The position numbers and the translations under genes were made by a program. The notes beneath the pieces were generated by a model. It was not told the origin of the DNA and did not search any database. It saw nothing but the letters and a program-made list of their open reading frames with translations. This document shows, piece by piece, positions 5,745 to 20,680 of a DNA stretch of 64,000 bases (within the stretch, counting starts at the first letter, position 1; the number at the start of each line of letters is the position of its first letter). Location: IMG/VR virus record IMGVR_UViG_3300009155_000035, one strand, 5' to 3'. Origin of the DNA: a virus (Duplodnaviria > Caudoviricetes).

Positions 5745-6445
5745 AGCAAGCCATAAGCGAAGTGATGATCAAACGCAATCGTGATTTGAAATTTCAACCC
5801 CCACCTTATAACAAAAATGCCTCATTTGATTGGATACAATGGCATTCAGGTTTGCCTTGGCTCAGGCTTGATATCCCAGTTCCCGCAGACACAATCTTAA
5901 AAGAAATTGCCAAAATTGAACCGTACTTGACAGTGCACCGTGAAGAGTATTCAGAACACGCAGGCTGGAAAAGCTTTTGTATTCATGGCAAAGCTTATGA
6001 TGCCACTCGCGAAGATACGCATTATAACGATCAACGGCCTTATACTTGGACCACAGAAGCATTGCAACACATGCCAGAAACAGTTGAGTACTTTAAAAAT
6101 CATTGGCCAGGATCTGGATACAGGCGTATTCGAGTTATGTTGCTGGAGCCTGGCGGGTACATTACCATACATGCAGACGCTACTTCACCGGGCATGCGAG
6201 CAGTCAACATATCAATTACTCAACCAGAACAATGCGACTTTATCATGTCTGGGCATGGCACTGTGCCATATCAGACAGGGTCTGCCATGTGGTTAGATAC
6301 ATCTAATTTGCACGTGGTGTATAATCACAGTACCAAACCCAGATGGCATATCATAGTACATCAACAGTTTGACAACATCAAGTTCCAAGACTTGGTTGTA
6401 AACAGTTACAAAATGTTGTATAATAACATTGATGCGCCCAGATAA
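5738..6445 (+). CDS. 2OG-Fe(II) oxygenase (aspartyl/asparaginyl beta-hydroxylase-like)
   Basis: RIRVMLLEPGGYITIHAD (HxD), distal H in HVVYN, R in PRWHIIV. Confidence 0.75.
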   Translation: MLKQAISEVMIKRNRDLKFQPPPYNKNASFDWIQWHSGLPWLRLDIPVPADTILKEIAKIEPYLTVHREEYSEHAGWKSFCIHGKAYDATREDTHYNDQRPYTWTTEALQHMPETVEYFKNHWPGSGYRRIRVMLLEPGGYITIHADATSPGMRAVNISITQPEQCDFIMSGHGTVPYQTGSAMWLDTSNLHVVYNHSTKPRWHIIVHQQFDNIKFQDLVVNSYKMLYNNIDAPR

Positions 6446-7559
6446 TTTTTGTTATGCACCCTGGTCCGGACTTGAGATCATGCAAAGTGGTAAGATATTG
6501 CCATGTTGTAAGTTCATGGACGAATACTATGACCGACGATACAACATAACACAAGACACAGTGGATGATTATCGTAACAGCAAGTACCTGGCCGAGATCA
6601 AACAAGAATTTTTAAATGGGCAATGGCCACGTGGTTGTGAACGTTGCAAGCTTGAAGAAGAATCACATATAAAAAGCAAACGTCAACTTGACTATGATCG
6701 TTGGCAAGACAAGTATGCAACCTATGACATCAACAGCAACGAATGTTTGTCACTGGGTATTGCATTTGGTAACACTTGCAATTTAAAATGCATCATCTGT
6801 CATCCATCTGCATCCAGCAAGTGGCAGAAAGAATATAGTGATTTATATGGTGTGACTTTTCCCATAATAGAAAGTTTCCGTAAGCCTGTTATTAATTCAA
6901 TTACAAGCCTAGCCCCCAATCTCATGCACATAGATATCTATGGTGGAGAACCATTTTTGTCCGGCATTGCAGAACATGAACAACTGCTTGACTACTACAT
7001 TGCATCAGGTCAAGCAAAAGAAATCACAATCCATTATACCACAAACGGCACACTATGGCCTGGCGAATCTTGGTTCAGTCGCTGGCAGCATTTCAAAGAG
7101 ATTGATTTGCAAATAAGCATAGATGGCATTGAAGAACGATTTGGCTATCTAAGATTCCCGGCCAAATGGAGCGACCTAGAACACAATGTACAACAATACA
7201 TAAGTCGCCAAAGTAGCAATTTTAGGCTAAGTGTGGCTCACACCGTGAGTGCATTTAATGTATACTACTTGGACGAATTTATTTCTTGGTGCCATGCCGT
7301 GGGCTTGCCAAAGCCCTGGTTAAGTCGATTACACAAACCCGAAGCCATGCGGGCCAACGTTTGGCCACGTGAAGTACGTGAAGTAATATCTCAGCACCTG
7401 CGCAAAAGCCGTTGGCCCGAAGTAAAGAACTGGGCTAGACTAATATTAGAAGATGGTCCTGACAGATTTGAGGAGTTTTGTGACCTTGTCAGCAAACATG
7501 ATCGGTATAGAAAGTTAGATTACAGGATAATTTTTCCCGAGATGGCACAGTACATATGA
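6429..7559 (+). CDS. Radical SAM protein with N-terminal twitch/SPASM-like Cys cluster
   Basis: CNLKCIIC, GGEP, N-terminal CYAPW...CC...CERC. Confidence 0.85.
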   Translation: MMRPDNFCYAPWSGLEIMQSGKILPCCKFMDEYYDRRYNITQDTVDDYRNSKYLAEIKQEFLNGQWPRGCERCKLEEESHIKSKRQLDYDRWQDKYATYDINSNECLSLGIAFGNTCNLKCIICHPSASSKWQKEYSDLYGVTFPIIESFRKPVINSITSLAPNLMHIDIYGGEPFLSGIAEHEQLLDYYIASGQAKEITIHYTTNGTLWPGESWFSRWQHFKEIDLQISIDGIEERFGYLRFPAKWSDLEHNVQQYISRQSSNFRLSVAHTVSAFNVYYLDEFISWCHAVGLPKPWLSRLHKPEAMRANVWPREVREVISQHLRKSRWPEVKNWARLILEDGPDRFEEFCDLVSKHDRYRKLDYRIIFPEMAQYI

Positions 7560-9025
7560 AGCGAGCAACATTAATTATACGTGACGAAGTCAACTTGAAG
7601 ATTGAAGGACTGGATCTTGACGCTCGCCGCACACTGGTCAATAAGTTCAAGTACGATGTTCCTTATGCACGTTATCTACCGGCAGTGAGATTGGGCAGAT
7701 GGGACGGCAAGGTCAGTTACTTCCAACTTGGCGGCAGTACCTACGTTAATTTGTTGCCAGAAATAATTCCTTTGCTTGAACAAATGAATTATGACATAGA
7801 GCTAGAGGACCAGCGAGAGTATTCAGTTACATTTGATTTCAAAGAAGTTGAAGAAAATTCTTGGTCACATAAAGTTTGGCCAAAAGGACATCCTGCAGAA
7901 GGTGCTCCTGTAATGTTACGTGATTACCAAGTATCAATTGTCAATAACTTTTTGCAAAATCCGCAATGCATCCAAGAAGTTGCCACCGGCGCCGGTAAAA
8001 CCATTATGACAGCCACGTTGAGTTCACGCATAGAACCTTACGGACGAAGCATTGTTATTGTACCCAACAAAAGCCTTGTTACACAAACAGAAAAAGATTA
8101 TGTGAATCTAGGTCTAGATGTTGGCGTGTACTATGGCGAGAGAAAAGAACACGGGCATCAGCACACTATTTGCACCTGGCAGAGTTTAAATGTATTGCTT
8201 AAAAATACCAAGTCAGGTGTGGGCAATGTTACTATACAAGACTTTATCGAAGGTGTGGTATGTATAATTGTTGACGAAGTACACATGGCCAAAGCTGATG
8301 CGCTCAAAACTTTGTTGACAGGTGTAATGAGTACCATACCTATTCGTTGGGGACTCACTGGAACAATCCCAAAAGAAAAATTTGAAAGCCAAGCACTAAT
8401 GGTAAGTCTTGGTCCAGTAATTGACCGCTTGACTGCCAACGAACTACAACAACAGGGCGTGTTGGCCAATTGCCATGTGAACATTGTTCAACTGGTTGAT
8501 CATGTAGAGTACAAAGACTATCAAAGCGAACTAAAGTATTTGTTAGAAGAGTCTGGTAGGTTGGACACAATCTCCAAGCTTGTACAGCAAGTTAATGAAA
8601 CCGGCAACACATTAGTGCTGGTAGATCGAGTAGCAGCCGGGCATGAGTTAGTTAGCCGTTTAGGTGATCGTGCAGTGTTTGTATCGGGTGCAACCAAAGC
8701 AAAGGCAAGACAAGATGAATATGATGAAGTGGCCGAGAGTACTGGAAAGATTATTGTGGCGACTTACGGTGTGGCCGCTGTGGGTATTAATATTCCAAGG
8801 ATTTTTAATCTGGTTCTTCTTGAACCCGGAAAGAGCTTTGTCCGCGTTATACAATCAATTGGACGCGGCATTAGAAAAGCAGAAGATAAAAACTTCGTAC
8901 AAATCTGGGACGTCACGTCAACGTGCAAATTCGCTAAACGTCACCTTACAAAACGCAAGCAGTTCTACAAAGAAGCCAACTATCCCTTTACGCAGGAACA
9001 GCTAGAATGGATGACACATGGGTAA
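7556..9025 (+). CDS. uvsW: SF2 DNA helicase, T4 UvsW-like
   Basis: ATGAGKT, DEVH, LTGT, QSIGRGIR. Confidence 0.85.
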   Translation: MKRATLIIRDEVNLKIEGLDLDARRTLVNKFKYDVPYARYLPAVRLGRWDGKVSYFQLGGSTYVNLLPEIIPLLEQMNYDIELEDQREYSVTFDFKEVEENSWSHKVWPKGHPAEGAPVMLRDYQVSIVNNFLQNPQCIQEVATGAGKTIMTATLSSRIEPYGRSIVIVPNKSLVTQTEKDYVNLGLDVGVYYGERKEHGHQHTICTWQSLNVLLKNTKSGVGNVTIQDFIEGVVCIIVDEVHMAKADALKTLLTGVMSTIPIRWGLTGTIPKEKFESQALMVSLGPVIDRLTANELQQQGVLANCHVNIVQLVDHVEYKDYQSELKYLLEESGRLDTISKLVQQVNETGNTLVLVDRVAAGHELVSRLGDRAVFVSGATKAKARQDEYDEVAESTGKIIVATYGVAAVGINIPRIFNLVLLEPGKSFVRVIQSIGRGIRKAEDKNFVQIWDVTSTCKFAKRHLTKRKQFYKEANYPFTQEQLEWMTHG

Positions 9026-10363: not shown

Positions 10364-10793
10364 ACTACACATTCGAAATGAGATGGCAAATCTTGATCGA
10401 AAGAATCGCGAGTTCTACGACAGCTTGACTGATGAGGAACGCAAGAAGTTCAGTCCTTATCTCATGATTCGCTGGAGCAGTGCAATTGATGGAGACAGAG
10501 AACTTCAAGAGTATTATGTAAGAAGTTGCAATCACTATCTTAATCGAGACTTCTTTGCAGTCAATCGTCATCCCAAACTGCAATGGCTCATGGCAACCGC
10601 AGTAAGCCCGGATCTGGGTACGCCTTCGCACTCTTGGATAAAGCCCAAACCAAAAGAAAAAGGTGACAATGAAGTTAAGAAAAAGTTGATGTCGTTATAC
10701 CCAAACATGAAGATGGACGAGATCGAATTGCTCAGTAAGCTAGTATCTAAAAAAGATATAGCTGCCTATATGCGTGAGATGGGTGATGATTGA
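10353..10793 (+). CDS. Possible clamp-loader small subunit (T4 gp62-like)
   Basis: FSPYLMIRWSS...QWL...SWIKPK pattern recalls gp62-type proteins; replication context. Confidence 0.45.
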   Translation: MLDKLHIRNEMANLDRKNREFYDSLTDEERKKFSPYLMIRWSSAIDGDRELQEYYVRSCNHYLNRDFFAVNRHPKLQWLMATAVSPDLGTPSHSWIKPKPKEKGDNEVKKKLMSLYPNMKMDEIELLSKLVSKKDIAAYMREMGDD

Positions 10794-11470
10794 ACATGTC
10801 TTATATTTGCCGATATTGTGACCGAGAGTTTGTTAAAGAAACCAGTTTACAAGTACATGTTTGCGAACACAAGAAGAGATATCTTGAACGTGAAGAAACA
10901 GGTGTACAAATTGGATTGCAAGCATACTTGACTTTCTATGAGATTACTCAAGGATCAGCTAAACTAAAATCCTGGGACGACTTTGTCAAGAGTCCGTACT
11001 ACAGGGCATTTGTTAAATTTGGTAGATACTGTCAAAGTATTCGCGCAATCAACATTTCACGTTTTATCGATTGGCTGCTCAAGAACAACAAAAAAATTGA
11101 CTACTGGTGTCGCGATACTGTGTATACAGAATATTTGGAAAGTTATCTCAAAGTAGAAGCAGTTACCGACGCACTGGCTAGAGCAATAGAATACAGCATT
11201 GCTTGGGCTGAGATCACAGACAGTCCGTCGCATGATTGTTTGAGATTTGGCAACGACAATGTTATTTGCCACAACATCATATCAGGTCGTATAAGCCCCT
11301 GGGTGGTGTACAATTGTGACTCGGGCATTGAGTTTTTGGGTCGTATCAATCAAGAACAACTTGCTATGATTTGGAACTTGGTAGACACAGATTTTTGGAG
11401 TAAAAAATTCCAGGATTATGTGGCCGATCAAGAATATGTCAAAGATATCTTAAAACAAGCAGGATGGTAA
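10790..11470 (+). CDS. Hypothetical protein with N-terminal zinc-finger-like motif
   Basis: CRYC...HVCEH. Confidence 0.6.
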   Translation: MNMSYICRYCDREFVKETSLQVHVCEHKKRYLEREETGVQIGLQAYLTFYEITQGSAKLKSWDDFVKSPYYRAFVKFGRYCQSIRAINISRFIDWLLKNNKKIDYWCRDTVYTEYLESYLKVEAVTDALARAIEYSIAWAEITDSPSHDCLRFGNDNVICHNIISGRISPWVVYNCDSGIEFLGRINQEQLAMIWNLVDTDFWSKKFQDYVADQEYVKDILKQAGW

Positions 11471-11737
11471 ATGCCAGCTGGTGTAATAGTGTTGAGCAAA
11501 GACACCTGGGAAGACTTGGAAGATCGCCTGCGAGATGAATATGCACATACACCAAGTGTGATGCTTATTAGAAGCCGCATGAGAGAAGTACTGGGATTTA
11601 CTCCGCGGGTTCACAGTCAATGGATTGAATTCACACCAGCCAACAGCACTGTTCCTAGAATCCGTCTGATTGAAGAAGTGCATTTAGATTTTTTCAATCC
11701 AGCACAAGAAACATTTTTTAGACTAAAATATCTATGA
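11471..11737 (+). CDS. Hypothetical protein
   Basis: 88-aa coupled ORF. Confidence 0.6.
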   Translation: MPAGVIVLSKDTWEDLEDRLRDEYAHTPSVMLIRSRMREVLGFTPRVHSQWIEFTPANSTVPRIRLIEEVHLDFFNPAQETFFRLKYL

Positions 11738-12723
11738 CACCAATTGATTTCATGGGCGGGTCTCATGGAAACTTCCTTGAATTTGTTTGCAACAAGTTTC
11801 TTGCCAAGGTACCTGTTGCCGCTGATATTCCGTTTAACTTATACGGCGCCAGTCATGGCAAACAATACTTGGGCAAGAAAGAATTTGTATGCGCTCACTA
11901 CTCGGTGTTTGGCGAACCAGTTCCAGCAGGCAAAGTGATATCAATACAAATTACGCAGGATGATTTACTTGCGTTACAATGTATCAGTCTACTTCGAGCC
12001 GGGGACTACGATATTAATCCAAATCAACTTGAAGTCAACACTTACAACAAGTTAAACAATCGAGACTATCGTTGGGTACTTGATAATTTGTGCAACAAAT
12101 ATTTTGATAACCAAGTAGCAGAAAGTTACCAAGCAATCGCCGACCCAAATTGGCCATGTGTTACCAGTGTTGATGAATACAATCAACTACCAGAACCAAT
12201 ACGTGTTGAATGTGAGCAGGTACACAGCCTACAATTATATCAGTTTAATTCTGAACATCCAGATTGTCCTAGATATATTTTACGAGAGTTTTTTAAATTT
12301 GGATTTGCTAATCCAGACAAGCATGGATTCATTGCTCATCAACAGTTAATGCAGTATACTAGTGAACATAGTGTTTACATATTTCCCTATTCAAGTTTTT
12401 ATGACACTGATGTTTTTGTAACCGAGGTAGTCAAGTTGTCAAACTGGATGGGATTGTCGTTTACGCCTGATGAGGAATTTGTAACTTTGCACCAAGAATT
12501 TTTAAAACGGCAAGTGTATAAAAATGTCAAACAGGATTGTGAGTCAATTGTTGAAAAAATCATGCTTGGTGAACAGTTTAGATTGCCAAGCTTGGATGTT
12601 ATTCAAGAAGCATATATTGAAGCCAGGATTGAACAGTTGACAGGAATACAGATGCCACTGAATCAACACAAGTGGTTTTTTAATTCAATAGAAATACAAA
12701 ATTTATATGAGCGCCGACGTTGA
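11734..12723 (+). CDS. Hypothetical protein carrying a D-x2-WP...LP module
   Basis: 329 aa; GGSHGNFL N-terminus; module at 12127-12225. Confidence 0.55.
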   Translation: MTPIDFMGGSHGNFLEFVCNKFLAKVPVAADIPFNLYGASHGKQYLGKKEFVCAHYSVFGEPVPAGKVISIQITQDDLLALQCISLLRAGDYDINPNQLEVNTYNKLNNRDYRWVLDNLCNKYFDNQVAESYQAIADPNWPCVTSVDEYNQLPEPIRVECEQVHSLQLYQFNSEHPDCPRYILREFFKFGFANPDKHGFIAHQQLMQYTSEHSVYIFPYSSFYDTDVFVTEVVKLSNWMGLSFTPDEEFVTLHQEFLKRQVYKNVKQDCESIVEKIMLGEQFRLPSLDVIQEAYIEARIEQLTGIQMPLNQHKWFFNSIEIQNLYERRR

Positions 12724-13285
12724 CATTGATTTGCCTGACAGGGATGTTTTATTACGTTTAATAAAGCATATACCAGCAAGGTTGGAACTTGGAACATCAG
12801 TACGCAAGCATAACTCGGGTGTGTACATCACTGATATCCCACAAGACCCAGTCAATGGGTGTGCGGCATTGGATTATGAATCTGCCGAACAACGTGGTTA
12901 TTTTAAAATTGACTTGCTGAACATGAGTGTGTACAGCTTGGTCAAAGATCCAGAACACTACAGGACAATGCTTGATGCAGAGCCACCTTGGTCTCGATCA
13001 TGGACTGATAAGGCCTGGGCTTCTCAACTGGTACATGTGGGCAATTATACTGACTTGTTAGCAGAAATGAAACCTGATTCTATACCACGCATGGCAGCTT
13101 TTATTTCTATAATTAGACCAGGCAAGGCCCACTTACAGCATAAGTCTTGGCAAGAAGTTTTTGCTACAGTATGGGATGGTGACAGCAGTAAGGGTTTTAC
13201 ATTTAAAAAATCACATGCTTTGAGTTATGCTCACTTGGTTGCATTGCACATGAATTTAATCAACTCTACGGACCAAAGTAATTGA
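12707..13285 (+). CDS. dnaE: Minimal DNA polymerase III alpha (C-family) catalytic fragment
   Basis: DVDID, HNSGV, GYFKIDLL, IIRPG and FTFKKSHA in DnaE order within 192 aa. Confidence 0.75.
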   Translation: MSADVDIDLPDRDVLLRLIKHIPARLELGTSVRKHNSGVYITDIPQDPVNGCAALDYESAEQRGYFKIDLLNMSVYSLVKDPEHYRTMLDAEPPWSRSWTDKAWASQLVHVGNYTDLLAEMKPDSIPRMAAFISIIRPGKAHLQHKSWQEVFATVWDGDSSKGFTFKKSHALSYAHLVALHMNLINSTDQSN

Positions 13286-13633
13286 TCTTCTCTTGCTTTT
13301 GCGTTTGGTGATATCATTTAAGCTACAAACAGGACCATGAATAATTTCCAAGTCCTTGTTGCTAAATGTACGTAGATAAACCTTGAAATCGTCCCACTCG
13401 CCTTTAAGGAAGATGTTGATTGGGATACTACGGTTGCTCTCCCACCACCAAACATTTGCAAGTTCTAAGAACTTTTGCTTGTGTTCATTGTTTGCTATAC
13501 TACCAAAATCGTAGATAGTTGTGACTGTATTGTCTTGATTTTGTATAATACCAACGTACTCTATCCCTGCATACACGCACAGCGTTATGAACGGATAGTG
13601 TTCGCTAAGAGTACTAAACATATTTTTACCCAT
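13256..13633 (-). CDS. Hypothetical phage protein
   Basis: 125-aa ORF, basic C-terminus, convergent with the dnaE fragment. Confidence 0.65.
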   Translation of the reverse strand: MGKNMFSTLSEHYPFITLCVYAGIEYVGIIQNQDNTVTTIYDFGSIANNEHKQKFLELANVWWWESNRSIPINIFLKGEWDDFKVYLRTFSNKDLEIIHGPVCSLNDITKRKSKRRSITLVRRVD

Positions 13634-13653: not shown

Positions 13654-14439
13654 ATGTATTCGACCACAGCCTATTTATATCAGCAAATCCAACCGGTGAT
13701 TTTGGTAGACATCACGGGAGCCTATTTTGATCGGAGATGGCAACCAGTGTACGCAAAAAACTTAACACTTAATCTGGGTGTAGACAATGTAATATTGTTC
13801 CAGTTTCAGAATCAGGATCAGAAACCTGTAAATATTACAGGTGCAACCTTCACGTTTCGCATTATCAGCCAAAATGGTCAAGACCTGCTATTCTCCAAGG
13901 AACTAGTAAGTTTAAGCAATCAACTGGGTCGAGCCAAGGTAACTATCACTGCCGAAGAATCAATGCATTTCCAGGAGCAGCCAGCAAACTGGAGTATTGA
14001 AATAAGCTCGGGTGTACTGAACCAAGCAGTATACACTGATGATAAATGCAGTGCTCGCGGCGTAATTGACATTGTCAACTCGGTGTTCCCGGCGTTTGTT
14101 GCAAGCCGGATTTTGACGATTCCAAGTCAAGCACCTGACAGTTCAATTTACTATTCCAGCACAGTGACCACTGACGGGTCTCCTTTGACAACCTTCCAGT
14201 TAGATACTGCTAACTACACAGGTACTATTGCAGTACAAGGCGCAACTGATGCAACAGCAAATACCGTCGAGTGGTACAACATTGATTTTCAGGATCTAGC
14301 AACTGGTAACACAGTTAGTGAGTTAACAGTCACTAGTTCAACCTCAAGACGTGGTATTAATGTTCAAGGATATCATCCTTATCTAAGATTAGAATTTGGC
14401 ATCAGTAATGGAAATGTAGATCTAATTAGTTACAGATGA
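13654..14439 (+). CDS. Probable virion structural protein (Ig/BppU-N-like beta sandwich)
   Basis: GVDNVILFQFQNQDQKPVNITG pattern, beta-rich, TAAATA at 13633-13638. Confidence 0.5.
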   Translation: MYSTTAYLYQQIQPVILVDITGAYFDRRWQPVYAKNLTLNLGVDNVILFQFQNQDQKPVNITGATFTFRIISQNGQDLLFSKELVSLSNQLGRAKVTITAEESMHFQEQPANWSIEISSGVLNQAVYTDDKCSARGVIDIVNSVFPAFVASRILTIPSQAPDSSIYYSSTVTTDGSPLTTFQLDTANYTGTIAVQGATDATANTVEWYNIDFQDLATGNTVSELTVTSSTSRRGINVQGYHPYLRLEFGISNGNVDLISYR

Positions 14440-15173
14440 AGTTTAAAAAAATTGTAGGTTTTGGGGATAGCTGGGTTTGGGGCGACGAGTTACTGGACCC
14501 AGTTTTGCTTTCTAAAGACAAAAATGCACATCCAAGTTGGATGCAAAATACTCCTTACAGAGAAAGCAATTGCTTTTTGGGATTGCTAGGCAAACATTAC
14601 AACGTCCCAGCTGAAAACTTTGGAATCCCCGGTGGAAGTTTACAAAGTACCATTTGGACTTTTCTTTGGTGGCTGCATCACGAACCCAATCCATCAGAGT
14701 GCCTGGTACTAACCGGCTTAACTGAAGGTAGTAGAATGAGTTTTTTCAATCCCAACCATCAACGCATGAACAACGACCCACCGTGGAACAAATTTGTACA
14801 CAGTGCCTGGGTACATGCCGGGGTTGAAGACGGGCCTGTTACTCGAGACTGGTCCGATATGATCAAACGTTACATGGTATTAAGTGAAAGCGATCCACTG
14901 AGCTTGTTAAATTACCAACAAGCATTGTATACATTTGATGGCATTGCTGCCAGACGAAATATACCCATGCTAATTTGGGATATAAGTCCCCCACAAGAAG
15001 AATTATCAGTACCAACAAAAATTTGGACAGGCTTTAACTTTGTACATTGGCTAAGACGCCATCCAAATGAACTAGAGTTAACATTTCCGGGCGGCCACCC
15101 GAATGAAAAAGGGCACTTAATACTCCGAGATATGTTGCAAGATGAGATTGATCGTGTTATACTATCACAGTGA
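14436..15173 (+). CDS. SGNH/GDSL hydrolase-like protein
   Basis: GFGDSW block I and GGHPNEKGH block V. Confidence 0.7.
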   Translation: MKFKKIVGFGDSWVWGDELLDPVLLSKDKNAHPSWMQNTPYRESNCFLGLLGKHYNVPAENFGIPGGSLQSTIWTFLWWLHHEPNPSECLVLTGLTEGSRMSFFNPNHQRMNNDPPWNKFVHSAWVHAGVEDGPVTRDWSDMIKRYMVLSESDPLSLLNYQQALYTFDGIAARRNIPMLIWDISPPQEELSVPTKIWTGFNFVHWLRRHPNELELTFPGGHPNEKGHLILRDMLQDEIDRVILSQ

Positions 15174-16150
15174 TCAACGTATTCGATTATCTGCCAGGCA
15201 AACGCAAACAAACACCATCAGGATGGGTCAGCTTCAATGCGGTTTGTTGCACTCATAATGGCAACAGCTTAGACCGACGCCAGCGAGGTGGATTCAAAGC
15301 AACCGAACAAGGCTGGAGCTACCACTGCTTTAATTGTGGGTATACTGCTAGTTTTATTCTTGGAAGGCAGCTAACATTCAAAGCCCGTAAGCTATTGACC
15401 TGGCTAAACGTGCCAGATGCAGAGATTGAACATGTTAACTTAGAAAGTCTAAAGCATCGCAACATACACGGCATCATAGACGACAGGCAACAAATGTTTA
15501 ATACTCTTCAAGCCATTGAGTTTGAAGAACGAGATCTACCGCCCTTTGCAGAGTTGTTGACCGATGAAAATGCGGGGTACACAGAATATGTGAGATCCAG
15601 GTGCGTGCCAGAAGACTTTCCTGTGATGATACAAGAGCGCAACGACGGTGTTCATTGGGTGCGTCCGCACGTGGTAATTCCGTTTACACACAATGACAAA
15701 ATTGTGGGATGGACTTGTAGATTTTTAGACAACAAGCAACCCAAGTTTATCAGTGACAGCCAGCCAGGTTATGTATTTGGCACAGACTTGCAACACAGCG
15801 ATTGGCAGTATGTGATTGTTACTGAAGGAATTTTTGATGCACTCTCTATAGGCGGTCTAGCGTTAATGCACAATACTATAAGCGATGCTCAGGCAAGATT
15901 AATACGCAGTCTAGGAAAAGAAATTGTTGTAGTACCAGATCAAGACAAACCGGGTATGAAGTTGGTTGACCGCGCAGTAGAGCTTAACTGGGCAGTGAGT
16001 ATACCCAATTGGCCCGAGGACGTCAAAGATGTCAACGATGCAGTGATTAGATATGGCAAGTTGGCCACTTTGATGATGATTATGCAGGCAAAAGAAACAT
16101 CCAAGATCAAAATAGAGATGCAAAAGAAAAAGGTACTAAAGCGTGTCTAA
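15170..16150 (+). CDS. DNA primase (T4 gp61/DnaG-like: Zn finger + TOPRIM)
   Basis: CC..H...HCFNC, VTEGIFDAL, VPDQD, KDVND. Confidence 0.9.
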   Translation: MINVFDYLPGKRKQTPSGWVSFNAVCCTHNGNSLDRRQRGGFKATEQGWSYHCFNCGYTASFILGRQLTFKARKLLTWLNVPDAEIEHVNLESLKHRNIHGIIDDRQQMFNTLQAIEFEERDLPPFAELLTDENAGYTEYVRSRCVPEDFPVMIQERNDGVHWVRPHVVIPFTHNDKIVGWTCRFLDNKQPKFISDSQPGYVFGTDLQHSDWQYVIVTEGIFDALSIGGLALMHNTISDAQARLIRSLGKEIVVVPDQDKPGMKLVDRAVELNWAVSIPNWPEDVKDVNDAVIRYGKLATLMMIMQAKETSKIKIEMQKKKVLKRV

Positions 16151-17243
16151 TTCATGGTGCCCAGAAATATTTCGCAGTATCTATGTTGATAGATTTAATG
16201 ATGATCAAATACGATTTGCACCCTGCTGTCAAGCACTGCCAACAATAGAACCTTTGTCTACATTTGATTTTGCCACCAATCAATATCTAACTGGTCTAAG
16301 AGAACAAATAGCACAAGGCAAAAAACCCACTGAGTGTGATTCATGTTGGAAAGTAGAACGTGTAGGGCAAAAAAGTCGTAGACAAAGTGCTATTGAATTC
16401 TTTTCAATTGAGCCTAATATAGACGTGGTGTTAGAAAGTATTGATCACAGCGCCACATGGGCTTGCAATTCTGCTTGTGTAATGTGCAAACCACAGCATA
16501 GCAGTATGTGGGCCAGTGAGTTAAACTACAGTGCAGACGAATTGTACAAAGCTGGACGACGTTTTCAAAAAGCCAATAATTTTTTAGAGTACCTTGATAT
16601 TACAAACATTAAGAAAATACATTTCAATGGCGGAGAGCCGTTGTTAAACAACGATCAAGTTGAGTTGTTGGAAAAACTAAAGACCAACAACAAGTTGTCA
16701 TCTACATTTGTGAGCTATAATACAAACGGCACAGTTTATCCCTCACAAAAGATTTTGAATTTATGGGCAGAGACTCGTTTGGTAAAGTTGTTTTTTAGTT
16801 TAGATGCAATTGGCCCTGCATTTAACTACATACGTTGGCCAGGAGATTGGAACCAAGTGCGTGACAATATTTTGAGACTGCGTGATACTGCACCATCAAA
16901 TGTTATGTTTGGGATCAACGCCACAGTAGGTGCTCATAATTTATTAGAGATTGGTGCAATGTATCAGTGGTTTGACGCAAATTTAAAAACCAACCGAGAA
17001 GGTGACCCATCGGATTTTTGTTGGCAATTTGCCGATAACTTTCCAGTGTCTGCGGTGCCCGAGCAAGTTAAAAATAAAGCCATCGAACAATTGTCCAATG
17101 TTGATGTATTGACTCCATTGGCAGACCATGTTAAATATAACCCACCCAGCAGTTATCCGTGGACACAAACGTTAGATACAATTGATCAACGACGCGGAAC
17201 CGACTGGCGTACTGTGTTAGAAATTGGAAAATATGACTGTTAA
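16143..17243 (+). CDS. Radical SAM protein with N-terminal twitch-like Cys cluster
   Basis: CNSACVMC, FNGGEPL, N-terminal WCP...PCC...CDSC. Confidence 0.85.
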   Translation: MSNSWCPEIFRSIYVDRFNDDQIRFAPCCQALPTIEPLSTFDFATNQYLTGLREQIAQGKKPTECDSCWKVERVGQKSRRQSAIEFFSIEPNIDVVLESIDHSATWACNSACVMCKPQHSSMWASELNYSADELYKAGRRFQKANNFLEYLDITNIKKIHFNGGEPLLNNDQVELLEKLKTNNKLSSTFVSYNTNGTVYPSQKILNLWAETRLVKLFFSLDAIGPAFNYIRWPGDWNQVRDNILRLRDTAPSNVMFGINATVGAHNLLEIGAMYQWFDANLKTNREGDPSDFCWQFADNFPVSAVPEQVKNKAIEQLSNVDVLTPLADHVKYNPPSSYPWTQTLDTIDQRRGTDWRTVLEIGKYDC

Positions 17244-17958
17244 CTATCAATTTTACGAAACCACAACATGCAAGGCCGCCTGGGACAACTACATGGGCCT
17301 AGATACTAGTATGCGTCCATTGAATGGCTTGTGTTTGATTTACTACGTGATCAAACATTTTCAACCACAGAGCATTTTAGAAATTGGATTTAGAGAAGGC
17401 ATGACATTTGCCGCAATGCTAGAAGCATCCACGCCCGGTTGTCACTTAACTGGTATTGATATCAAACTCACAAGAGAACACTTTGACAAATACTTTAACA
17501 AGATACAACTTACACACGATAGGCGTATTGATTTGTTTGAAATACCCAGTCAAAACTTTATTCCAGATCGCAAATATGATTTTGTCAATGTTGATGGATG
17601 TCACGAGTACCCACAGGTATTGACTGACCTAGCGACAGTGAGTCGTGTTGTGGAAAACAATGCAATCATCATGCTTGATGATTATGCCACACCCGGAGTG
17701 GACCAAGCCATTGATGATTTTATGAAGCTAGACACAGGATTTGTGCCGTTTTTAAAAGATCGTCAAGCAGTGTTTTTTCATCACGAGAGTCACGATGCTT
17801 CGGAGTTTCTTGACAATGTATTAGACAAAACATTCTTTGACTTAGCATCACTTTATAATGTACAATACAAAGGACACAACACTAAAGAAGTAAACTTTTG
17901 GCCAGCCATAAAAGATAACAAAATATTTTGGCTCATGTGTAACCGACTAAAAATATAA
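17233..17958 (+). CDS. Class I SAM-dependent methyltransferase
   Basis: ILEIGFREG, FVNVDGCHEY, IMLDDY. Confidence 0.75.
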   Translation: MTVNYQFYETTTCKAAWDNYMGLDTSMRPLNGLCLIYYVIKHFQPQSILEIGFREGMTFAAMLEASTPGCHLTGIDIKLTREHFDKYFNKIQLTHDRRIDLFEIPSQNFIPDRKYDFVNVDGCHEYPQVLTDLATVSRVVENNAIIMLDDYATPGVDQAIDDFMKLDTGFVPFLKDRQAVFFHHESHDASEFLDNVLDKTFFDLASLYNVQYKGHNTKEVNFWPAIKDNKIFWLMCNRLKI

Positions 17959-17959
17959 T

Positions 17960-19396
17960 ATGCTTAAAGAATACACAGTTGATATACAAAGATTGTTTTT
18001 GGAGATGATGTTAGAGGACGCACAAAGTTATGTGCGTGTACAGAACATCTACAACCCACAGAACTTTGACAGGAGTTTACGTGCTGCCGCCGAGTTTATC
18101 AAAGAGCATACTGACAAGTTCAAGACCATGCCCGAGCGTACACAGATTGCAGCCGCAACCAGTGTAAAGCTTCAGCCGGTGCCAGATCTCAACGAAGGTC
18201 ACTTTGAATGGTTTATGCAAGAGTTTGAAAGTTTTACCAAGCGCCAAGAACTTGAAAGGGCTATTCTTAAAGCGGCAGACTTGCTGGAAAAAGGTGAGTT
18301 TGACCCCGTTGAGAAACTGATCAAAGATGCTGTTCAAATATCCCTGACCAAGGACCTGGGCACAGATTTTTGGCTAGATCCGGAATCCATGTTCAGTCGA
18401 TACTTTGATGCAGGTGGACAAGTAAGCACAGGATGGCCACAGCTGGACAAGTTGCTGTATGGTGGATTCAGTCGAGGTGAACTCAACATCTTTGCAGGTG
18501 GATCGGGATCAGGCAAGTCCTTGGTCATGATGAACATTGCGTTGAATTGGGTACAACTGGGACTGCATGGTGTTTATATCACGCTTGAACTTAGTGAAGA
18601 GCTCACAGGTCTGCGCACAGCGGCCATGTTGACTAACATGAGCACCAAGGACATTCGCAAAGACAAAGAAACTGCATCGTTAAAAATCAAATTGGTTGGT
18701 AAAAAAGCAGGTAGTTATCAAGTCAAGGCATTGCCAGCACAAAGCAATATCAATGATATTCGCGCATTCTTGAAAGAGTATCAAATCAAAACAGGACGCA
18801 AAGTAGACTTCATGATGATTGACTACTTGGACTTGTTGATGCCGGTTAGTGCCAAAGTCAGTCCCAACGACTTGTTTGTTAAAGACAAGTACGTGAGTGA
18901 GGAACTGCGTAACTTGGCCAAAGAGCTGGGTATCTTGATGGTAACAGCTTCGCAGTTGAACCGAAGTGCTGTGGAAGAAATTGAATTTGATCACTCGCAC
19001 ATTTCGGGCGGTATCTCCAAGATCAACACAGCAGACAACGTGTTCGGCATCTTTACCAGTCGTGCCATGAAAGAGCGTGGCAAGTATCAGATCCAGTGTA
19101 TGAAGAGTCGTAGTTCTACAGGTGTGGGACAAAAGATTGATTTAGACTACAACATGGAAACCATGCGTATTACAGACAGTGGTGACGCAGAAGGCGAGGG
19201 TTTCAGTAAAAAGCCTTCAATGAATATCATGGAAAGTATCAAGGCAAAGGCCAGTGTTAGTGCGAGTACCAGTGAAACAAGTTCAACATCCTGGGAAAGA
19301 GCCACAGGAACGCCAGCGTGGGAACAACCTCCCAAGGTAGAAGCTGAAGTTCAAAGTGCAAAACTAAAACAGTTGCTTGGACAAATTAAAAAATAA
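17960..19396 (+). CDS. dnaB: Replicative DNA helicase (DnaB/T4 gp41-like)
   Basis: GGSGSGKS, ITLEL, MIDYLDL, TASQLNR. Confidence 0.92.
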   Translation: MLKEYTVDIQRLFLEMMLEDAQSYVRVQNIYNPQNFDRSLRAAAEFIKEHTDKFKTMPERTQIAAATSVKLQPVPDLNEGHFEWFMQEFESFTKRQELERAILKAADLLEKGEFDPVEKLIKDAVQISLTKDLGTDFWLDPESMFSRYFDAGGQVSTGWPQLDKLLYGGFSRGELNIFAGGSGSGKSLVMMNIALNWVQLGLHGVYITLELSEELTGLRTAAMLTNMSTKDIRKDKETASLKIKLVGKKAGSYQVKALPAQSNINDIRAFLKEYQIKTGRKVDFMMIDYLDLLMPVSAKVSPNDLFVKDKYVSEELRNLAKELGILMVTASQLNRSAVEEIEFDHSHISGGISKINTADNVFGIFTSRAMKERGKYQIQCMKSRSSTGVGQKIDLDYNMETMRITDSGDAEGEGFSKKPSMNIMESIKAKASVSASTSETSSTSWERATGTPAWEQPPKVEAEVQSAKLKQLLGQIKK

Positions 19397-20406
19397 TGTA
19401 CGCATATCAAGATATACGTCATGTGCATTTAGAAATTTCTAGTCGGTGCAATGCAGAGTGCCCGCTGTGTCCTAGAAATTTTTATGGATATCCCTACAAT
19501 GATGGGTACATTGAGCATGATATGACATTGGGTGAAGCACAACGTATATTCTCGGTTGATTTTATCAAACAGTTGGGCGCAGTACAAATCAATGGTAACT
19601 TTGGCGACATCGTCATGAATCATGATGCTATCTCCATTGTTGAATATTTGCGTAGTCATAACAATGTCATGGACATCACTGTTACCACAAACGCTGGCGC
19701 CAGAGATAAAAAATTCTGGCGAGAACTGGCAAGATTACGATGCCGTGTTATTTTTTGTATTGAGGGGTTTGAAGACACTCATCATCTCTACAGACAAAAT
19801 ACACGCTATGAAGTCGTTATAAAAAACGCCAAGACATTTATTGACGCGGGCGGTACAGCTACCTGGAAAATGATAGACTTTGCGCATAACAAGCATCAGC
19901 AAGAACCAGCTCGCCAACTATCTAAAGACATGGGGTTTAAGAACTTTCTTTTGGTAGATTACGGACGAGATACTGCCCCAGTATTTGACCACAGTGGCAA
20001 TTTAAAACACGTCATTGGCAACCCCACAGAGACAAATTTTAAAAAAATGTTTTTTACGCGAACTGTCAACAGAGTATTTCTTAAAGATATCATTGATGAT
20101 AGAACCCCTGCTCCAATCAGTTGTGCAGTCAAGGGATCAAGTTCAGTGTACGTGTCCAGTACCGGTGATGCGTACCCATGTTGTTTCTTGGGATTTAATC
20201 CCAAAACATATGGGCATGGTAATTATCATGCCGCTGCCAACAAACAAATATCTGAATTAATTTACGAAAACAATGCTATTGAACATGGGCTAGAACATGC
20301 TATTAAATGGTTTGATAATATTGTAAAGGCCTGGGAAATACCCGACTTCCTCAGTGGCCGCCCAATCATTTGTCATGACTATTGTTCCAAAAACGGTAAA
20401 TATTGA
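19396..20406 (+). CDS. Radical SAM protein with C-terminal SPASM/twitch-like Cys residues
   Basis: CNAECPLC, GNFGD, YPCCF, CHDYC. Confidence 0.85.
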   Translation: MYAYQDIRHVHLEISSRCNAECPLCPRNFYGYPYNDGYIEHDMTLGEAQRIFSVDFIKQLGAVQINGNFGDIVMNHDAISIVEYLRSHNNVMDITVTTNAGARDKKFWRELARLRCRVIFCIEGFEDTHHLYRQNTRYEVVIKNAKTFIDAGGTATWKMIDFAHNKHQQEPARQLSKDMGFKNFLLVDYGRDTAPVFDHSGNLKHVIGNPTETNFKKMFFTRTVNRVFLKDIIDDRTPAPISCAVKGSSSVYVSSTGDAYPCCFLGFNPKTYGHGNYHAAANKQISELIYENNAIEHGLEHAIKWFDNIVKAWEIPDFLSGRPIICHDYCSKNGKY

Positions 20407-20422
20407 ACAAAGAGACGGTATC

Positions 20423-20680
20423 ATGCAAAAGAAAACTCGCAGTATTCTCGAAGAGCTAGACTCAATATATCAAGAACGTCAGCAGACCCGCGATCGACAA
20501 TACATTATTGAAAGTCGTGCTAGCAATGTCATTGCCAGTGCTATTCGTTTAATTGAACAAATTGAATCTACATTTACACCCGAGCAAGCAGATAATTTAA
20601 ATCGAAAATTGCTAAACGCAATTAGAGACCGAGATCCTGGTAAATTTATTAGAACCGTGAGACGTACCAATGCTGGCTGA
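20423..20680 (+). CDS. Hypothetical phage protein
   Basis: Likely start ATG 20423; coupled to the next gene. Confidence 0.6.
   Translation: MQKKTRSILEELDSIYQERQQTRDRQYIIESRASNVIASAIRLIEQIESTFTPEQADNLNRKLLNAIRDRDPGKFIRTVRRTNAG

What the first reader, a model, noticed from the sequence alone, without database searches (positions are those of the whole stretch)
12707..13285. 192-aa minimal C-family (DnaE) polymerase core, probably one piece of a split enzyme
Seen: DVDID (residues 4-8), HNSG, KID, RPG and FKKSH occur in DnaE order, and the ORF is cleanly overlapped at both ends. Established: DnaE (about 1100 aa) uses Asp residues in PDxDxD and KxD; the dNTP-binding GRGS loop lies just upstream of PDxDxD, and PHP, HhH and OB domains flank the core. 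All of those are absent and the protein starts right at the catalytic motif. Inference: a naturally split, extremely reduced polymerase or NTase. A partner ORF with GRGS...EF should exist elsewhere in the genome.
Basis: partly seen in the sequence, partly recalled or inferred. Interest (0 to 1): 0.75.

Follow-up and report, generated by a model that had tools for sequence, protein, structure and literature searches.

The report
C-terminal half of split phage mini-DnaE
This 192-residue jumbo-phage gene is the metal-binding half of a stripped-down, two-piece relative of the bacterial replicative DNA polymerase (Pol III alpha/DnaE); the kind was already predicted by comparative genomics in 2021, has never been tested at the bench, and the other half lies outside this contig.

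Summary
ORF 12707-13285 (+) encodes 192 aa with DVDID, HNSG, KID, RPG and FKKSH exactly where stated, and it overlaps both neighbours. The resemblance to DnaE is real homology. The evidence is a full-length phrog_11778 match (E 4.6e-51), a profile search that hits only Pol III alpha chains in the PDB (E 5.6e-6), and an AlphaFold model (pLDDT 95) that aligns over all 192 residues to E. coli alpha 399-784. D4/D6/D69 align with catalytic D401/D403/D555. They are invariant in 79 diverse homologs, and dN/dS is about 0.08.

The predicted partner exists. It is a stand-alone ~175-aa protein (phrog_11127, PF07733) that ends ...GVGRGSS...EFL[KR]. In close relatives it lies about 100 kb downstream. By synteny it should lie roughly 15-18 kb beyond the end of this 92.7-kb contig fragment, so it was not found here. 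Rare natural fusions (375-376 aa) join the two halves, and their model matches DnaE at Z 21.8.

Iyer et al. 2021 (PMC7824862) described this split minimal Pol III alpha in group 2.2 jumbo phages. The scan has also noted stand-alone N-halves in at least eight other genomes. Activity and role remain untested. No PolB was found in the fragments, which is inconclusive.

The parts
12707..13285 (+). Gene for the C-terminal unit (192 aa) of the split minimal Pol III alpha-like enzyme (phrog_11778)
   Evidence: ORF. phrog_11778 at E 4.6e-51. The PDB profile search hits only DnaE. The AF2 model has pLDDT 95.4 and aligns to DnaE and PolC at Z 6.2-9.7 over residues 1-192. dN/dS is 0.083.
12716..12730 (+). 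Codons for D4-V-D6-I-D8, the metal-binding strand equivalent to E. coli alpha P400-D401-F-D403-V-D405
   Evidence: D4 and D6 are invariant and D8 is at least 90% conserved in 79 homologs. The profile aligns DiDiD with MPDFDVDF 399-406, in a weak domain. Model strand E5-9.
12809..12820 (+). Codons for H35-N-S-G38, on the beta-hairpin of the palm
   Evidence: H35 and G38 are at least 90% conserved and invariant in 79 close relatives. Model strands E22-28 and E31-40. Equivalence to the DnaE 'HAGGVVI' strand is my own recollection and was not tested residue by residue.
12905..12913 (+). Codons for K67-I-D69, equivalent to E. coli alpha K553-F-D555 (third catalytic carboxylate)
   Evidence: K67 and D69 are invariant. 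They align to VKFDFLGL of E. coli alpha. Model strand E68-72.
13115..13123 (+). Codons for R137-P138-G139, equivalent to E. coli alpha R639-P640-G641 in the fingers
   Evidence: P138 is invariant and R137 at least 90% conserved. They align to ALFRPG 636-641.
13202..13216 (+). Codons for F166-K-K-S-H170, equivalent to E. coli alpha F756-N-K-S-H760 in the fingers
   Evidence: K167 and H170 are at least 90% conserved. They align to GFNKSHSAAYAL.
10790..11470 (+). Context: C2H2 zinc-finger protein (phrog_11058), a conserved upstream neighbour of the C-unit
   Evidence: PHROG at E 1.7e-51 and a weak zf-C2H2 match. Homologs lie upstream of the C-unit in PAC2, Serratia BF, Phosso, Atu_ph07, Vibrio 2.275.O and a 343-kb JGI contig.
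13256..13633 (-). Context: conserved convergent 125-aa gene (phrog_11637) that overlaps the 3' end of the C-unit gene
   Evidence: PHROG at E 1.2e-34. It holds the same position and orientation in all six genomes compared.
15170..16150 (+). Context: DnaG-type primase (Toprim) of the same conserved replication block
   Evidence: phrog_47 at E 2.4e-34 and Toprim_2. Syntenic in relatives.
17960..19396 (+). Context: DnaB-like replicative helicase
   Evidence: phrog_19 at E 1.7e-65.
7556..9025 (+). Context: UvsW-like helicase at the start of the conserved block
   Evidence: phrog_16 at E 2.1e-75, plus ResIII, DEAD and Helicase_C. The PAC2 homolog is annotated UvsW.

Best explanation
The ORF encodes the C-terminal unit of the two-piece 'minimal DNA polymerase III alpha' of group 2.2 (Rak2/PA5oct/Atu_ph07-type) jumbo phages.

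Shown here. It is homologous to DnaE and PolC from the metal-binding strand of the Pol-beta-type palm through a shortened fingers region (E. coli alpha 399 to about 784). The thumb and about 100 residues of the fingers are deleted. PHP, clamp-binding, HhH and OB domains are absent. The ORF carries the three catalytic carboxylates (D4, D6, D69) and the conserved basic and His residues of the dNTP/template pocket (K67, R137, K167/K168, H170). It is under strong purifying selection and sits in a deeply conserved replication block (UvsW ... C2H2 protein - C-unit - convergent small gene ... primase - DnaB).

Inferred. On its own it is an incomplete nucleotidyltransferase fold. It should pair non-covalently, without inteins, with a separately encoded ~175-aa N-unit (phrog_11127/PF07733). 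That unit supplies the preceding helices, the first palm strand and the GVGRGSS triphosphate-binding loop, and it ends at EFL[KR], precisely where this protein begins. The heterodimer would carry out two-metal nucleotidyl transfer. The most likely role is short-patch or primer-extension DNA synthesis that assists the phage replisome. It is less likely to be the processive replicase, because every DNA-clamping and clamp-binding domain is missing.

In this phage the N-unit gene is expected roughly 15-18 kb past the 3' end of the available contig.
For: Family identity: phrog_11778 at E 4.6e-51 over the full length, and a weak match to the DnaE-like phrog_405 at profile positions 578-681.

Homology to DnaE: the profile of A1 hits 9 distinct PDB sequences, all Pol III alpha, best E 5.6e-6, with KiD aligned to KFD555, RPG to RPG641 and FKKSH to FNKSH760. 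The AF2 model has pLDDT 95.4 and pTM 0.88. In VIA-align the top 7 hits are all C-family polymerases: 5lew Z 9.7, 3f2b PolC Z 9.5, 2hpi Z 9.4, and E. coli 5m1s/5fku Z 7.5/7.0 over 399-781/784. The next, unrelated hit is at Z 4.3. The top 14 Foldseek hits are all DnaE.

Conservation and selection: D4, D6, K67, D69 and P138 are invariant in 79 diverse homologs. Median pairwise dN/dS is 0.083 over 1060 pairs, range 0.04-0.19.

Partner: stand-alone 163-186-aa proteins with PF07733, an invariant GVGRGSS and an EFL[KR] end. P0391 matches phrog_11127 at E 1.7e-40 and phrog_405 at positions 390-431. The N-unit lies 98.8 kb downstream of the C-unit in relative G001 and 106.8 kb in G002, and 43.6 kb downstream in PAC2.

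Co-occurrence: 96 phage records hold the C-unit, and 92 or 103 hold the N-unit depending on the probe. Genus counts are nearly identical.

Fusion evidence: three independent clusters of 375-376-aa proteins join N and C through a ~10-residue linker and keep all motifs. The fused model (pLDDT 87.9, pTM 0.86) matches DnaE at Z 21.8, 18.8 and 15.9 and PolC at Z 17.7. Generic Pol-beta-fold NTases align only across the N/C junction, residues ~103-275.

Synteny: the replication block around the C-unit is conserved in six distant genomes.

Literature: Iyer et al. 2021 describe exactly this split enzyme.
Against: No N-unit was found in the window's own 92.7-kb contig by PF07733, phrog_405, phrog_11127, a custom HMM on the six-frame translation, tblastn or a motif search. 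The pairing is therefore inferred from relatives and synteny.

No biochemical or genetic data on any member were found in the searchable literature.

Physical association of the separate halves was not modelled, because only the natural fusion could be folded, and AlphaFold may simply reproduce the DnaE arrangement.

The loss of thumb, duplex-binding and clamp-binding domains leaves it unclear whether the enzyme can hold a primer-template at all.

No family B polymerase was detected in this contig or in the 212-kb and 148-kb relatives. The 'accessory to PolB' part therefore rests on cultured relatives such as PAC2 and on the literature.
Confidence: 0.85

Rival explanations
1. The two-piece enzyme is catalytically active but is not a templated DNA polymerase of the replisome. 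It would be a specialised nucleotidyltransferase, for example one doing terminal or untemplated addition, making a nucleotide-derived signal or primer, or handling modified nucleotides.
For: All domains that grip duplex DNA or the sliding clamp in DnaE (thumb, beta-binding, HhH, OB) are missing. After the C-family polymerases, the next structural neighbours of the fused core are small Pol-beta-fold NTases such as ANT(2''), CCA-adding enzyme, MenT and OAS, at Z 3.5-4.9. The gene block is interleaved with radical-SAM, methyltransferase-like and other modification-type genes (scan note e1-5318844).
Against: Similarity to C-family polymerases is far stronger (Z 12-22) than to any other NTase (Z 4.9 or less). 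The fingers motifs RPG and FKKSH, which are typical of DnaE and are not general NTase features, are conserved. The gene sits between UvsW and primase/DnaB in every genome examined.
Confidence: 0.12
2. The ORF is a decaying or inactive remnant of dnaE, either a pseudo-enzyme or a purely structural replisome component, with no catalytic role and no need for a partner.
For: It lacks half of the NTase fold and most DnaE domains. Pfam does not recognise it. The partner was not found in this contig.
Against: All three catalytic Asp residues and the pocket residues are invariant across homologs with only about 30% overall identity. dN/dS is 0.083. There are 6720 homologs, nearly all of the same ~190-aa length. 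The N-unit, with an equally invariant GRGS loop, co-occurs with it. Fused forms keep every motif.
Confidence: 0.02
3. The short ORF is an artefact: an assembly error, frameshift or intein-type arrangement that truncates a full-length dnaE, with the halves joined by trans-splicing as in cyanobacterial split DnaE.
For: DnaE is naturally split by a split intein in cyanobacteria (my own knowledge). The PolB of related phages carries an intein.
Against: The same start at the DxD strand and the same ~190-aa length are seen in 96 phage genomes and 79 independent metagenomic loci. The frame upstream contains a stop, and the upstream ORF is unrelated. The N-unit ends at EFL[KR]-stop and the C-unit starts M-x-x-D, which leaves no room for the ~100-aa and ~35-aa intein halves. 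The two genes lie 34-107 kb apart.
Confidence: 0.01

Closest known systems
Split minimal DNA polymerase III alpha of group 2.2 jumbo phages (Iyer, Anantharaman, Krishnan, Burroughs & Aravind 2021, Viruses 13:63; PHROGs 11778 and 11127)
   Same: It is the same family, with a full-length phrog_11778 match. It has the same architecture: a C-terminal Mg2+/template-binding unit that starts at the DxD strand, and an N-terminal NTP-binding unit encoded far away. It has the same kind of host genome, a jumbo myovirus with UvsW, DnaG-type primase and DnaB. It shares synteny with PA5oct-type, Rak2-type, Atu_ph07 and Phosso phages.
   Different: This copy comes from an uncultured lineage that is only 36-44% identical to the cultured members. 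Its clade places the two genes about 100 kb apart, against 34-44 kb in cultured members. A lineage-specific 88-aa plus 329-aa insertion sits immediately upstream. The N-unit and PolB could not be shown in this fragment.
Bacterial Pol III alpha (DnaE), e.g. E. coli (PDB 2hnh, 5fku), Thermus aquaticus (2hpi), M. tuberculosis DnaE1 (5lew)
   Same: It shares the Pol-beta-type palm with the PDxDxD and KxD carboxylates, and the RPG and (N/K)KSH fingers motifs. The fold of residues 1-192 superposes on E. coli alpha 399-784.
   Different: It is about 1160 aa against 192 aa (about 370 aa for both units together). PHP, thumb, about 100 residues of the fingers, the clamp-binding motif, HhH, OB and the tau-binding domain are all absent. 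The GRGS loop lies on a separate polypeptide. Activity is untested.
Gram-positive PolC (Geobacillus kaustophilus, PDB 3f2b)
   Same: The structural match is as good as for DnaE: Z 9.5 for the C-unit and 17.7 for the fused form.
   Different: PolC has an inserted proofreading exonuclease, a permuted OB domain and a full set of DNA-binding domains.
Cyanobacterial intein-split DnaE (DnaE-n/DnaE-c)
   Same: The catalytic subunit of a C-family polymerase is encoded by two distant genes.
   Different: In cyanobacteria the split lies elsewhere in the protein and the halves are joined by a split intein (my own knowledge). Here no intein sequence is present, the break lies inside the palm between the GRGS loop and the DxD strand, and assembly must be non-covalent.
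Unsplit PHP-less 'mini-DnaE' (558 aa) on viral contig G003 (L085:514-2190, minus strand)
   Same: It is a phage-associated, reduced C-family polymerase without a PHP domain. It carries RGSAGSS, PDIDLDF, KIDIL and RP motifs.
   Different: It is a single polypeptide with a full PF07733 match (E 9.9e-39) and retains the region between the DxD and KxD strands. It is a different and larger lineage.

Membership tests
Split minimal Pol III alpha of group 2.2 jumbo phages, C-terminal unit (phrog_11778) | Full-length sequence match to the family profile | tested here: met
   phrog_11778 at E 4.6e-51, residues 3-187 on profile positions 7-193 of 197. 96 phage records hold homologs at 36-44% identity.
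Split minimal Pol III alpha of group 2.2 jumbo phages, C-terminal unit (phrog_11778) | A stand-alone ~190-aa protein that begins at the DxDxD metal-binding strand | tested here: met
   The ORF is 192 aa with DVDID at residues 4-8. Homologs start 0-17 residues before the motif.
Split minimal Pol III alpha of group 2.2 jumbo phages, C-terminal unit (phrog_11778) | A separately encoded N-terminal NTP-binding unit (GRGS loop; phrog_11127/PF07733) in the same genome | tested here: inconclusive
   It is absent from the 92.7-kb, 27%-complete contig. It is present in close relatives G001 and G002 at E 1.6e-41 and 5e-43, 99-107 kb downstream. Synteny puts it about 15-18 kb beyond this contig's end.
Split minimal Pol III alpha of group 2.2 jumbo phages, C-terminal unit (phrog_11778) | A jumbo-phage genome with a T4-like replication module, including a family B polymerase | tested here: inconclusive
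   UvsW, primase, DnaB, RNR, ATP-dependent ligase and a clamp-loader-like ATPase are present. PolB was not detected in G000, G001 or G002. It is present in PAC2 and is reported for the group.
C-family DNA polymerase catalytic subunit (DnaE/PolC) | Three catalytic carboxylates in PDxDxD and KxD on a Pol-beta-type palm | tested here: met
   D4, D6 and D69 are invariant. They align with E. coli D401, D403 and D555. That these E. coli residues are catalytic is established knowledge (Pritchard & McHenry 1999; Lamers et al. 2006), cited from memory.
C-family DNA polymerase catalytic subunit (DnaE/PolC) | The GS (GRGS) triphosphate-binding loop on the same polypeptide | tested here: not met
   The protein starts after that loop. 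In relatives the loop is on a separate protein. No G.G[RK]G[SA] motif occurs in any frame of the contig.
C-family DNA polymerase catalytic subunit (DnaE/PolC) | Palm plus fingers fold | tested here: met
   The model has pLDDT 95.4. VIA-align gives Z 6.2-9.7 to seven DnaE/PolC entries over residues 1-192, and the next hit is at Z 4.3. The fused relative reaches Z 12.1-21.8.
C-family DNA polymerase catalytic subunit (DnaE/PolC) | PHP domain, thumb, clamp-binding, HhH and OB domains | tested here: not met
   192 aa cover E. coli 399-784 with only 187-189 aligned residues. The profile alignment skips about 420-538 and 642-738. No PF02811 is found in G000, G001 or G002.
C-family DNA polymerase catalytic subunit (DnaE/PolC) | Template-directed DNA synthesis | not testable with these tools
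   This needs a biochemical assay. No published assay was found.
Intein-split DnaE (cyanobacterial type) | Split-intein halves at the break point | tested here: not met
   The N-unit ends EFL[KR]-stop and the C-unit begins M-S-A-D. Neither has extra residues that could form intein halves.

The most novel reading that the evidence does not exclude
In this uncultured freshwater or marine clade the two-piece, ~370-residue mini Pol III could be the main replicative DNA polymerase rather than an accessory. No family B polymerase was detectable in this 92.7-kb contig, nor in 212 kb (61% complete) and 148 kb of two close relatives, although PAC2's PolB is readily found by the same search. If so, it would be the smallest known C-family replicase. 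It would be assembled from two polypeptides that complete one nucleotidyltransferase fold, and it could serve as a living model of the ancestral DnaE.
Probability: 0.08. Interest if true: 0.85.

Novelty: new member of a known kind. Interest (0 to 1): 0.4.

Why it matters
The split mini Pol III is an intriguing and still uncharacterised enzyme. Its catalytic fold is cut through the middle of the active site, between the triphosphate-binding loop and the metal-binding strand, and the two halves are encoded tens of kilobases apart. Even so, both halves are widespread (thousands of metagenomic homologs) and strongly conserved.

It bears on how small a C-family polymerase can be, on the origin of bacterial DnaE, and on why T4-like jumbo-phage replisomes would need a second polymerase.

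This window adds no new principle, but the follow-up does add some support:
- It documents strong purifying selection on the C-unit.
- It shows recurrent natural N+C fusions that act as a Rosetta stone.
- It provides a confident model of the fused core.
- It shows a conserved gene neighbourhood (C2H2 protein - C-unit - convergent 125-aa gene) that suggests candidate additional subunits.

Together these make the published prediction easier to take to the bench.

Tried and rejected
On the ORF itself:
- Pfam gave no family, even at E 1.
- Single-sequence phmmer against the PDB gave nothing. Only the profile worked.
- Megablast of 11 kb around the gene against cultured phages gave no match.

Searching this contig for the partner all failed: phrog_405, PF07733, phrog_11127, a custom HMM from 115 N-units on the six-frame translation, tblastn with P0170, PAC2 and P0391 N-units, and a G.G[RK]G[SA] regex. 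I first suspected the overlapping upstream 329-aa ORF might be the partner. I rejected that because it has no GRGS, no PHROG or Pfam match, and no homolog in relatives.

Reaching a longer assembly of the same virus also failed. The exact protein is not on record for the look-up of encoding contigs. The 343-kb JGI contig of a 76%-identical relative cannot be searched. The scan's notes list no N-half in this genome.

The PolB searches were all negative in the three fragments, which is inconclusive. They used PF00136 on G000, G001 and G002, PAC2 PolB as a protein probe, local tblastn, and Pfam and PHROGs on the large G001 ORFs.

Alignment A2 (fused protein plus 54 N-units plus 64 C-units) was discarded because MAFFT stacked the C-units on the N-half. 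A4 was designed after local tests.

The promoter and terminator scan showed nothing above shuffled expectation.

Model coordinates are not exposed, so I could not measure distances between the GRGS loop and the Asp triad.

The PA5oct omics paper and the 2024 polymerase-swapping paper do not mention the split enzyme.
Full report
**1. The observation**

One search lists an ATG ORF at 12707-13285 (+) of 192 aa. Its translation carries DVDID (residues 4-8), HNSG (35-38), KID (67-69), RPG (137-139) and FKKSH (166-170). The upstream ORF 11734-12723 overlaps it by 17 nt. A convergent ORF at 13256-13633 (-) overlaps its 3' end by 30 nt.

**2. The setting**

The window lies in a 92,746-bp IMG/VR viral contig (window = 13042-77041) that CheckV rates 27% complete. 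Around the ORF are these genes:
- a UvsW-like helicase (7556-9025);
- a DnaG-type primase (15170-16150);
- a DnaB-like helicase (17960-19396);
- an exonuclease, class I RNR subunits and an ATP-dependent DNA ligase.

tblastn finds homologs of the ORF in 96 cultured phage records. All are jumbo myoviruses of the PA5oct, RaK2/121Q, Eneladusvirus, Atu_ph07, Phosso and XacN1 types, at 36-44% identity, and in 95 of them the match covers at least 80% of the ~190-aa query. Some are annotated 'DNA polymerase III alpha'. Gene order around the ORF matches Pseudomonas phage PAC2. The large protein database holds 6720 homologs of similar length.

**3. Homology to DnaE**

Pfam and single-sequence phmmer against the PDB find nothing. 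Three other lines of evidence agree.

- phrog_11778 ('DNA polymerase') matches end to end at E 4.6e-51. The DnaE-like phrog_405 matches weakly at profile positions 578-681.
- A profile of 79 representatives (A1, 28-58% identical to the window protein) hits nine distinct PDB sequences, all Pol III alpha (E. coli, Thermus, M. tuberculosis), with best E 5.6e-6. The motifs align in register: KiD with K553-F-D555, RPG with R639-P-G641, FKKSH with F756-N-K-S-H760, and more weakly DiDiD with P400-D401-F-D403-V-D405.
- The AlphaFold model is very confident (pLDDT 95.4, pTM 0.88). In an exhaustive structural comparison the seven best chains are all C-family polymerases: 5lew Z 9.7, PolC 3f2b Z 9.5, 2hpi Z 9.4, and E. 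coli 5m1s/5fku Z 7.5/7.0. Model residues 1-192 span E. coli 399-781/784. The next hit drops to Z 4.3. The top 14 Foldseek hits are also all DnaE.

Because 187-189 model residues cover about 385 residues of DnaE, the thumb and roughly 100 residues of the fingers are deleted. Everything N-terminal (PHP, first half of the palm) and C-terminal (clamp-binding, HhH, OB) is missing. No PHP domain is encoded in this contig or in two long relatives.

**4. The gene is functional**

In A1, D4, D6, K67, D69 and P138 are invariant, and D8, H35, G38, R137, K167 and H170 are at least 90% conserved. D401, D403 and D555 are the catalytic carboxylates of E. coli alpha. That is established knowledge, cited from memory.

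Among 79 related genes taken from IMG/VR loci, the median pairwise Nei-Gojobori dN/dS is 0.083, from 1060 pairs with 0.05<dS<1.5 and a range of 0.04-0.19. All motif residues are invariant apart from K168 and S169.

**5. The partner**

The representative search (359 hits at E<=1e-3) returned one 375-aa protein, P0170, that matches the ORF only over its residues 190-372. Its N-half reads ...GVGRGSSSASLLLFLL...DPIKYKLNIKEFIK, followed after ten residues by DFDID. This is the DnaE order.

Using that half as a probe gave these results:
- 92 cultured phage records hold a match, with almost the same genus counts as for the C-unit. Many are annotated 'DNA polymerase III alpha'.
- The protein database holds stand-alone 163-186-aa proteins that carry PF07733.
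- In their alignment GVGRGSS is invariant and all sequences end at EFL[KR].
- A probe from the window's own clade (P0391) also recovers the Agrobacterium phages. Genus counts then match those of the C-unit except for one Klebsiella record.
- P0391 belongs to phrog_11127 (E 1.7e-40) and matches phrog_405 at positions 390-431, just upstream of where the C-unit matches.

The break therefore falls exactly between the triphosphate-binding loop and the metal-binding strand. Neither end has any intein-like extension.

**6. Where the partner lies for this phage**

No N-unit is detectable in the contig by six different searches.

| Genome | C-unit position | N-unit position | Distance |
|---|---|---|---|
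| G001 (212.6 kb, C-unit 75% identical) | 73,442 | 172,231 | 98.8 kb |
| G002 (148 kb) | about 2.8 kb | 109.6 kb | 106.8 kb |
| PAC2 | 129,268 | 172,846 | 43.6 kb |

My contig is collinear with G001. Contig positions 0-92.7 kb correspond to G001 47.4-154.4 kb, so the contig stops about 15-18 kb short of the N-unit's position. The partner is thus expected just beyond the contig end, but this is an inference. A longer assembly of the same virus could not be reached.

**7. Evidence that the halves work together**

- The two genes co-occur in cultured phages, as described in section 5.
- Natural fusions exist. Three distinct clusters of 375-376 aa, 78-81% identical to one another and from independent ENA and Logan assemblies, keep GVGRGS, EFIK, DxDxD, HxxG, KIDxL, RPG and YKKTH.
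- The fused protein was folded with an alignment in which N-units and C-units are separate rows (A4). The model has pLDDT 87.9 and pTM 0.86, and both cores are above 90. It matches DnaE and PolC far better than the C-unit alone does: Z 21.8, 18.8, 17.7, 16.4, 15.9, 14.6 and 12.1. The next hits (Z 4.9 or less) are generic Pol-beta-fold nucleotidyltransferases, and they align across the junction at residues ~103-275.

The NTase fold is therefore complete only when both halves are present. One caveat applies: AlphaFold may reproduce the DnaE arrangement from training, and the separate chains could not be co-folded with these tools.

**8. Conserved neighbourhood**

The block p166 - p146 - C2H2 zinc-finger protein (phrog_11058) - C-unit - convergent 125-aa gene (phrog_11637) - ... 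- primase is conserved in six genomes: PAC2, Serratia BF, Sinorhizobium Phosso, Agrobacterium Atu_ph07, Vibrio 2.275.O and a 343-kb uncultured contig. The 88-aa and 329-aa ORFs directly upstream of the C-unit in this window have no counterpart in any of them.

**9. Comparison with the literature**

Iyer et al. [quoted passage not shown] It accompanies a family B polymerase, and the authors suggest that it cooperates in synthesis of one strand or in repair. The window's ORF is a member of the C-terminal unit. PolB, split by an intein, is reported for MIJ3/PA5oct, and I found it in PAC2. I found no experimental work on the split enzyme. The scan has also noted stand-alone N-halves in at least eight other genomes. 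Those are unchecked first-reader notes, and they agree with what I verified in relatives.

**10. Mechanism, with what is shown and what is inferred**

Shown:
- homology to DnaE, and the fold;
- which DnaE parts are kept and which are lost;
- conservation of the catalytic and pocket residues, and purifying selection;
- the existence, complementarity and co-occurrence of the N-unit;
- natural fusions.

Inferred:
- non-covalent assembly of the two units into one active site;
- two-metal nucleotidyl transfer;
- a role in phage DNA synthesis, probably short-patch or primer-extension synthesis and not processive replication, because all duplex- and clamp-binding domains are absent.

PolB was not detected in this contig or in 212 kb and 148 kb of relatives. 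That is inconclusive for fragments. It leaves a small chance that this clade relies on the mini Pol III more heavily than cultured relatives do.

**11. Verdict**

The feature is a new member, from an uncultured lineage, of a kind already described computationally in 2021. It remains biochemically uncharacterised, which keeps moderate interest.

Noticed in passing
window 11471-11737 (+) and 11734-12723 (+): An 88-aa and a 329-aa ORF are inserted between the conserved C2H2 gene and the C-unit, and the 329-aa ORF overlaps the C-unit start by 17 nt. Neither has a homolog at this position, or anywhere, in G001, PAC2, Serratia BF, Phosso, Atu_ph07, Vibrio 2.275.O or the 343-kb JGI contig. There is no Pfam or PHROG match. 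The ESM Atlas places the 329-aa protein in phage-only clusters with weak sulfotransferase-like leads.
   Followed up: partly
window 13256-13633 (-): A convergent 125-aa gene (phrog_11637, function unknown) overlaps the 3' end of the C-unit gene. It holds the same position and orientation in all six distant genomes compared, so it may be a functional partner. There was no usable Atlas hit.
   Followed up: partly
window 10790-11470 (+): A C2H2 zinc-finger protein (phrog_11058) is conserved upstream of the C-unit across the whole phage group. It could supply the nucleic-acid binding that the mini polymerase lacks. This is speculation.
   Followed up: partly
L085:514-2190 (-), contig G003 (IMGVR_UViG_3300042868_006771, 54 kb): A viral contig that carries a C-unit also encodes an unsplit, PHP-less 558-aa mini-DnaE with a full PF07733 match (E 9.9e-39), next to a porin-like ORF. 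Either this phage has two C-family systems, or the contig is chimeric or carries host DNA.
   Followed up: no
P0170, P0392, P0393 (L088:1066-2193 for P0170): A small lineage has the N- and C-units fused into one 375-376-aa protein through a ~10-residue linker. It is seen only on short metagenomic contigs.
   Followed up: yes
L105:502-3279 (-), G001 about 159.0-161.8 kb: A 926-aa ORF in the close relative combines a weak major-head-protein match (phrog_773) with a Hint/homing-endonuclease-associated domain. It may be an intein inside a structural gene.
   Followed up: no
window 6429-7559, 16143-17243, 19396-20406 (radical SAM); 17224-17958 (methyltransferase-like); 14436-15173: Three radical-SAM ORFs, a methyltransferase-like ORF and other accessory genes are interleaved one by one between the core replication genes, mostly with overlapping stops and starts. 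An earlier scan note reads this as a dispersed modification pathway (e1-5318844).
   Followed up: no
window 20670-22595 (+): A 641-aa ORF matches only phrog_455 (function unknown) in my scan. An earlier follow-up in this scan reads it as a PolX-like polymerase fused to a ligase-fold domain. If so, it is a second Pol-beta-fold enzyme in the same replication region (e1-5318860).
   Followed up: no
contig G000 87105-88034 (outside the window, about 10 kb past its end): A 309-aa ORF is 44% identical to the AAA-type gene that lies 2 kb downstream of the N-unit in G001 (174,806-175,720). No N-unit is near it in this contig, so it is probably a paralogue.
   Followed up: partly
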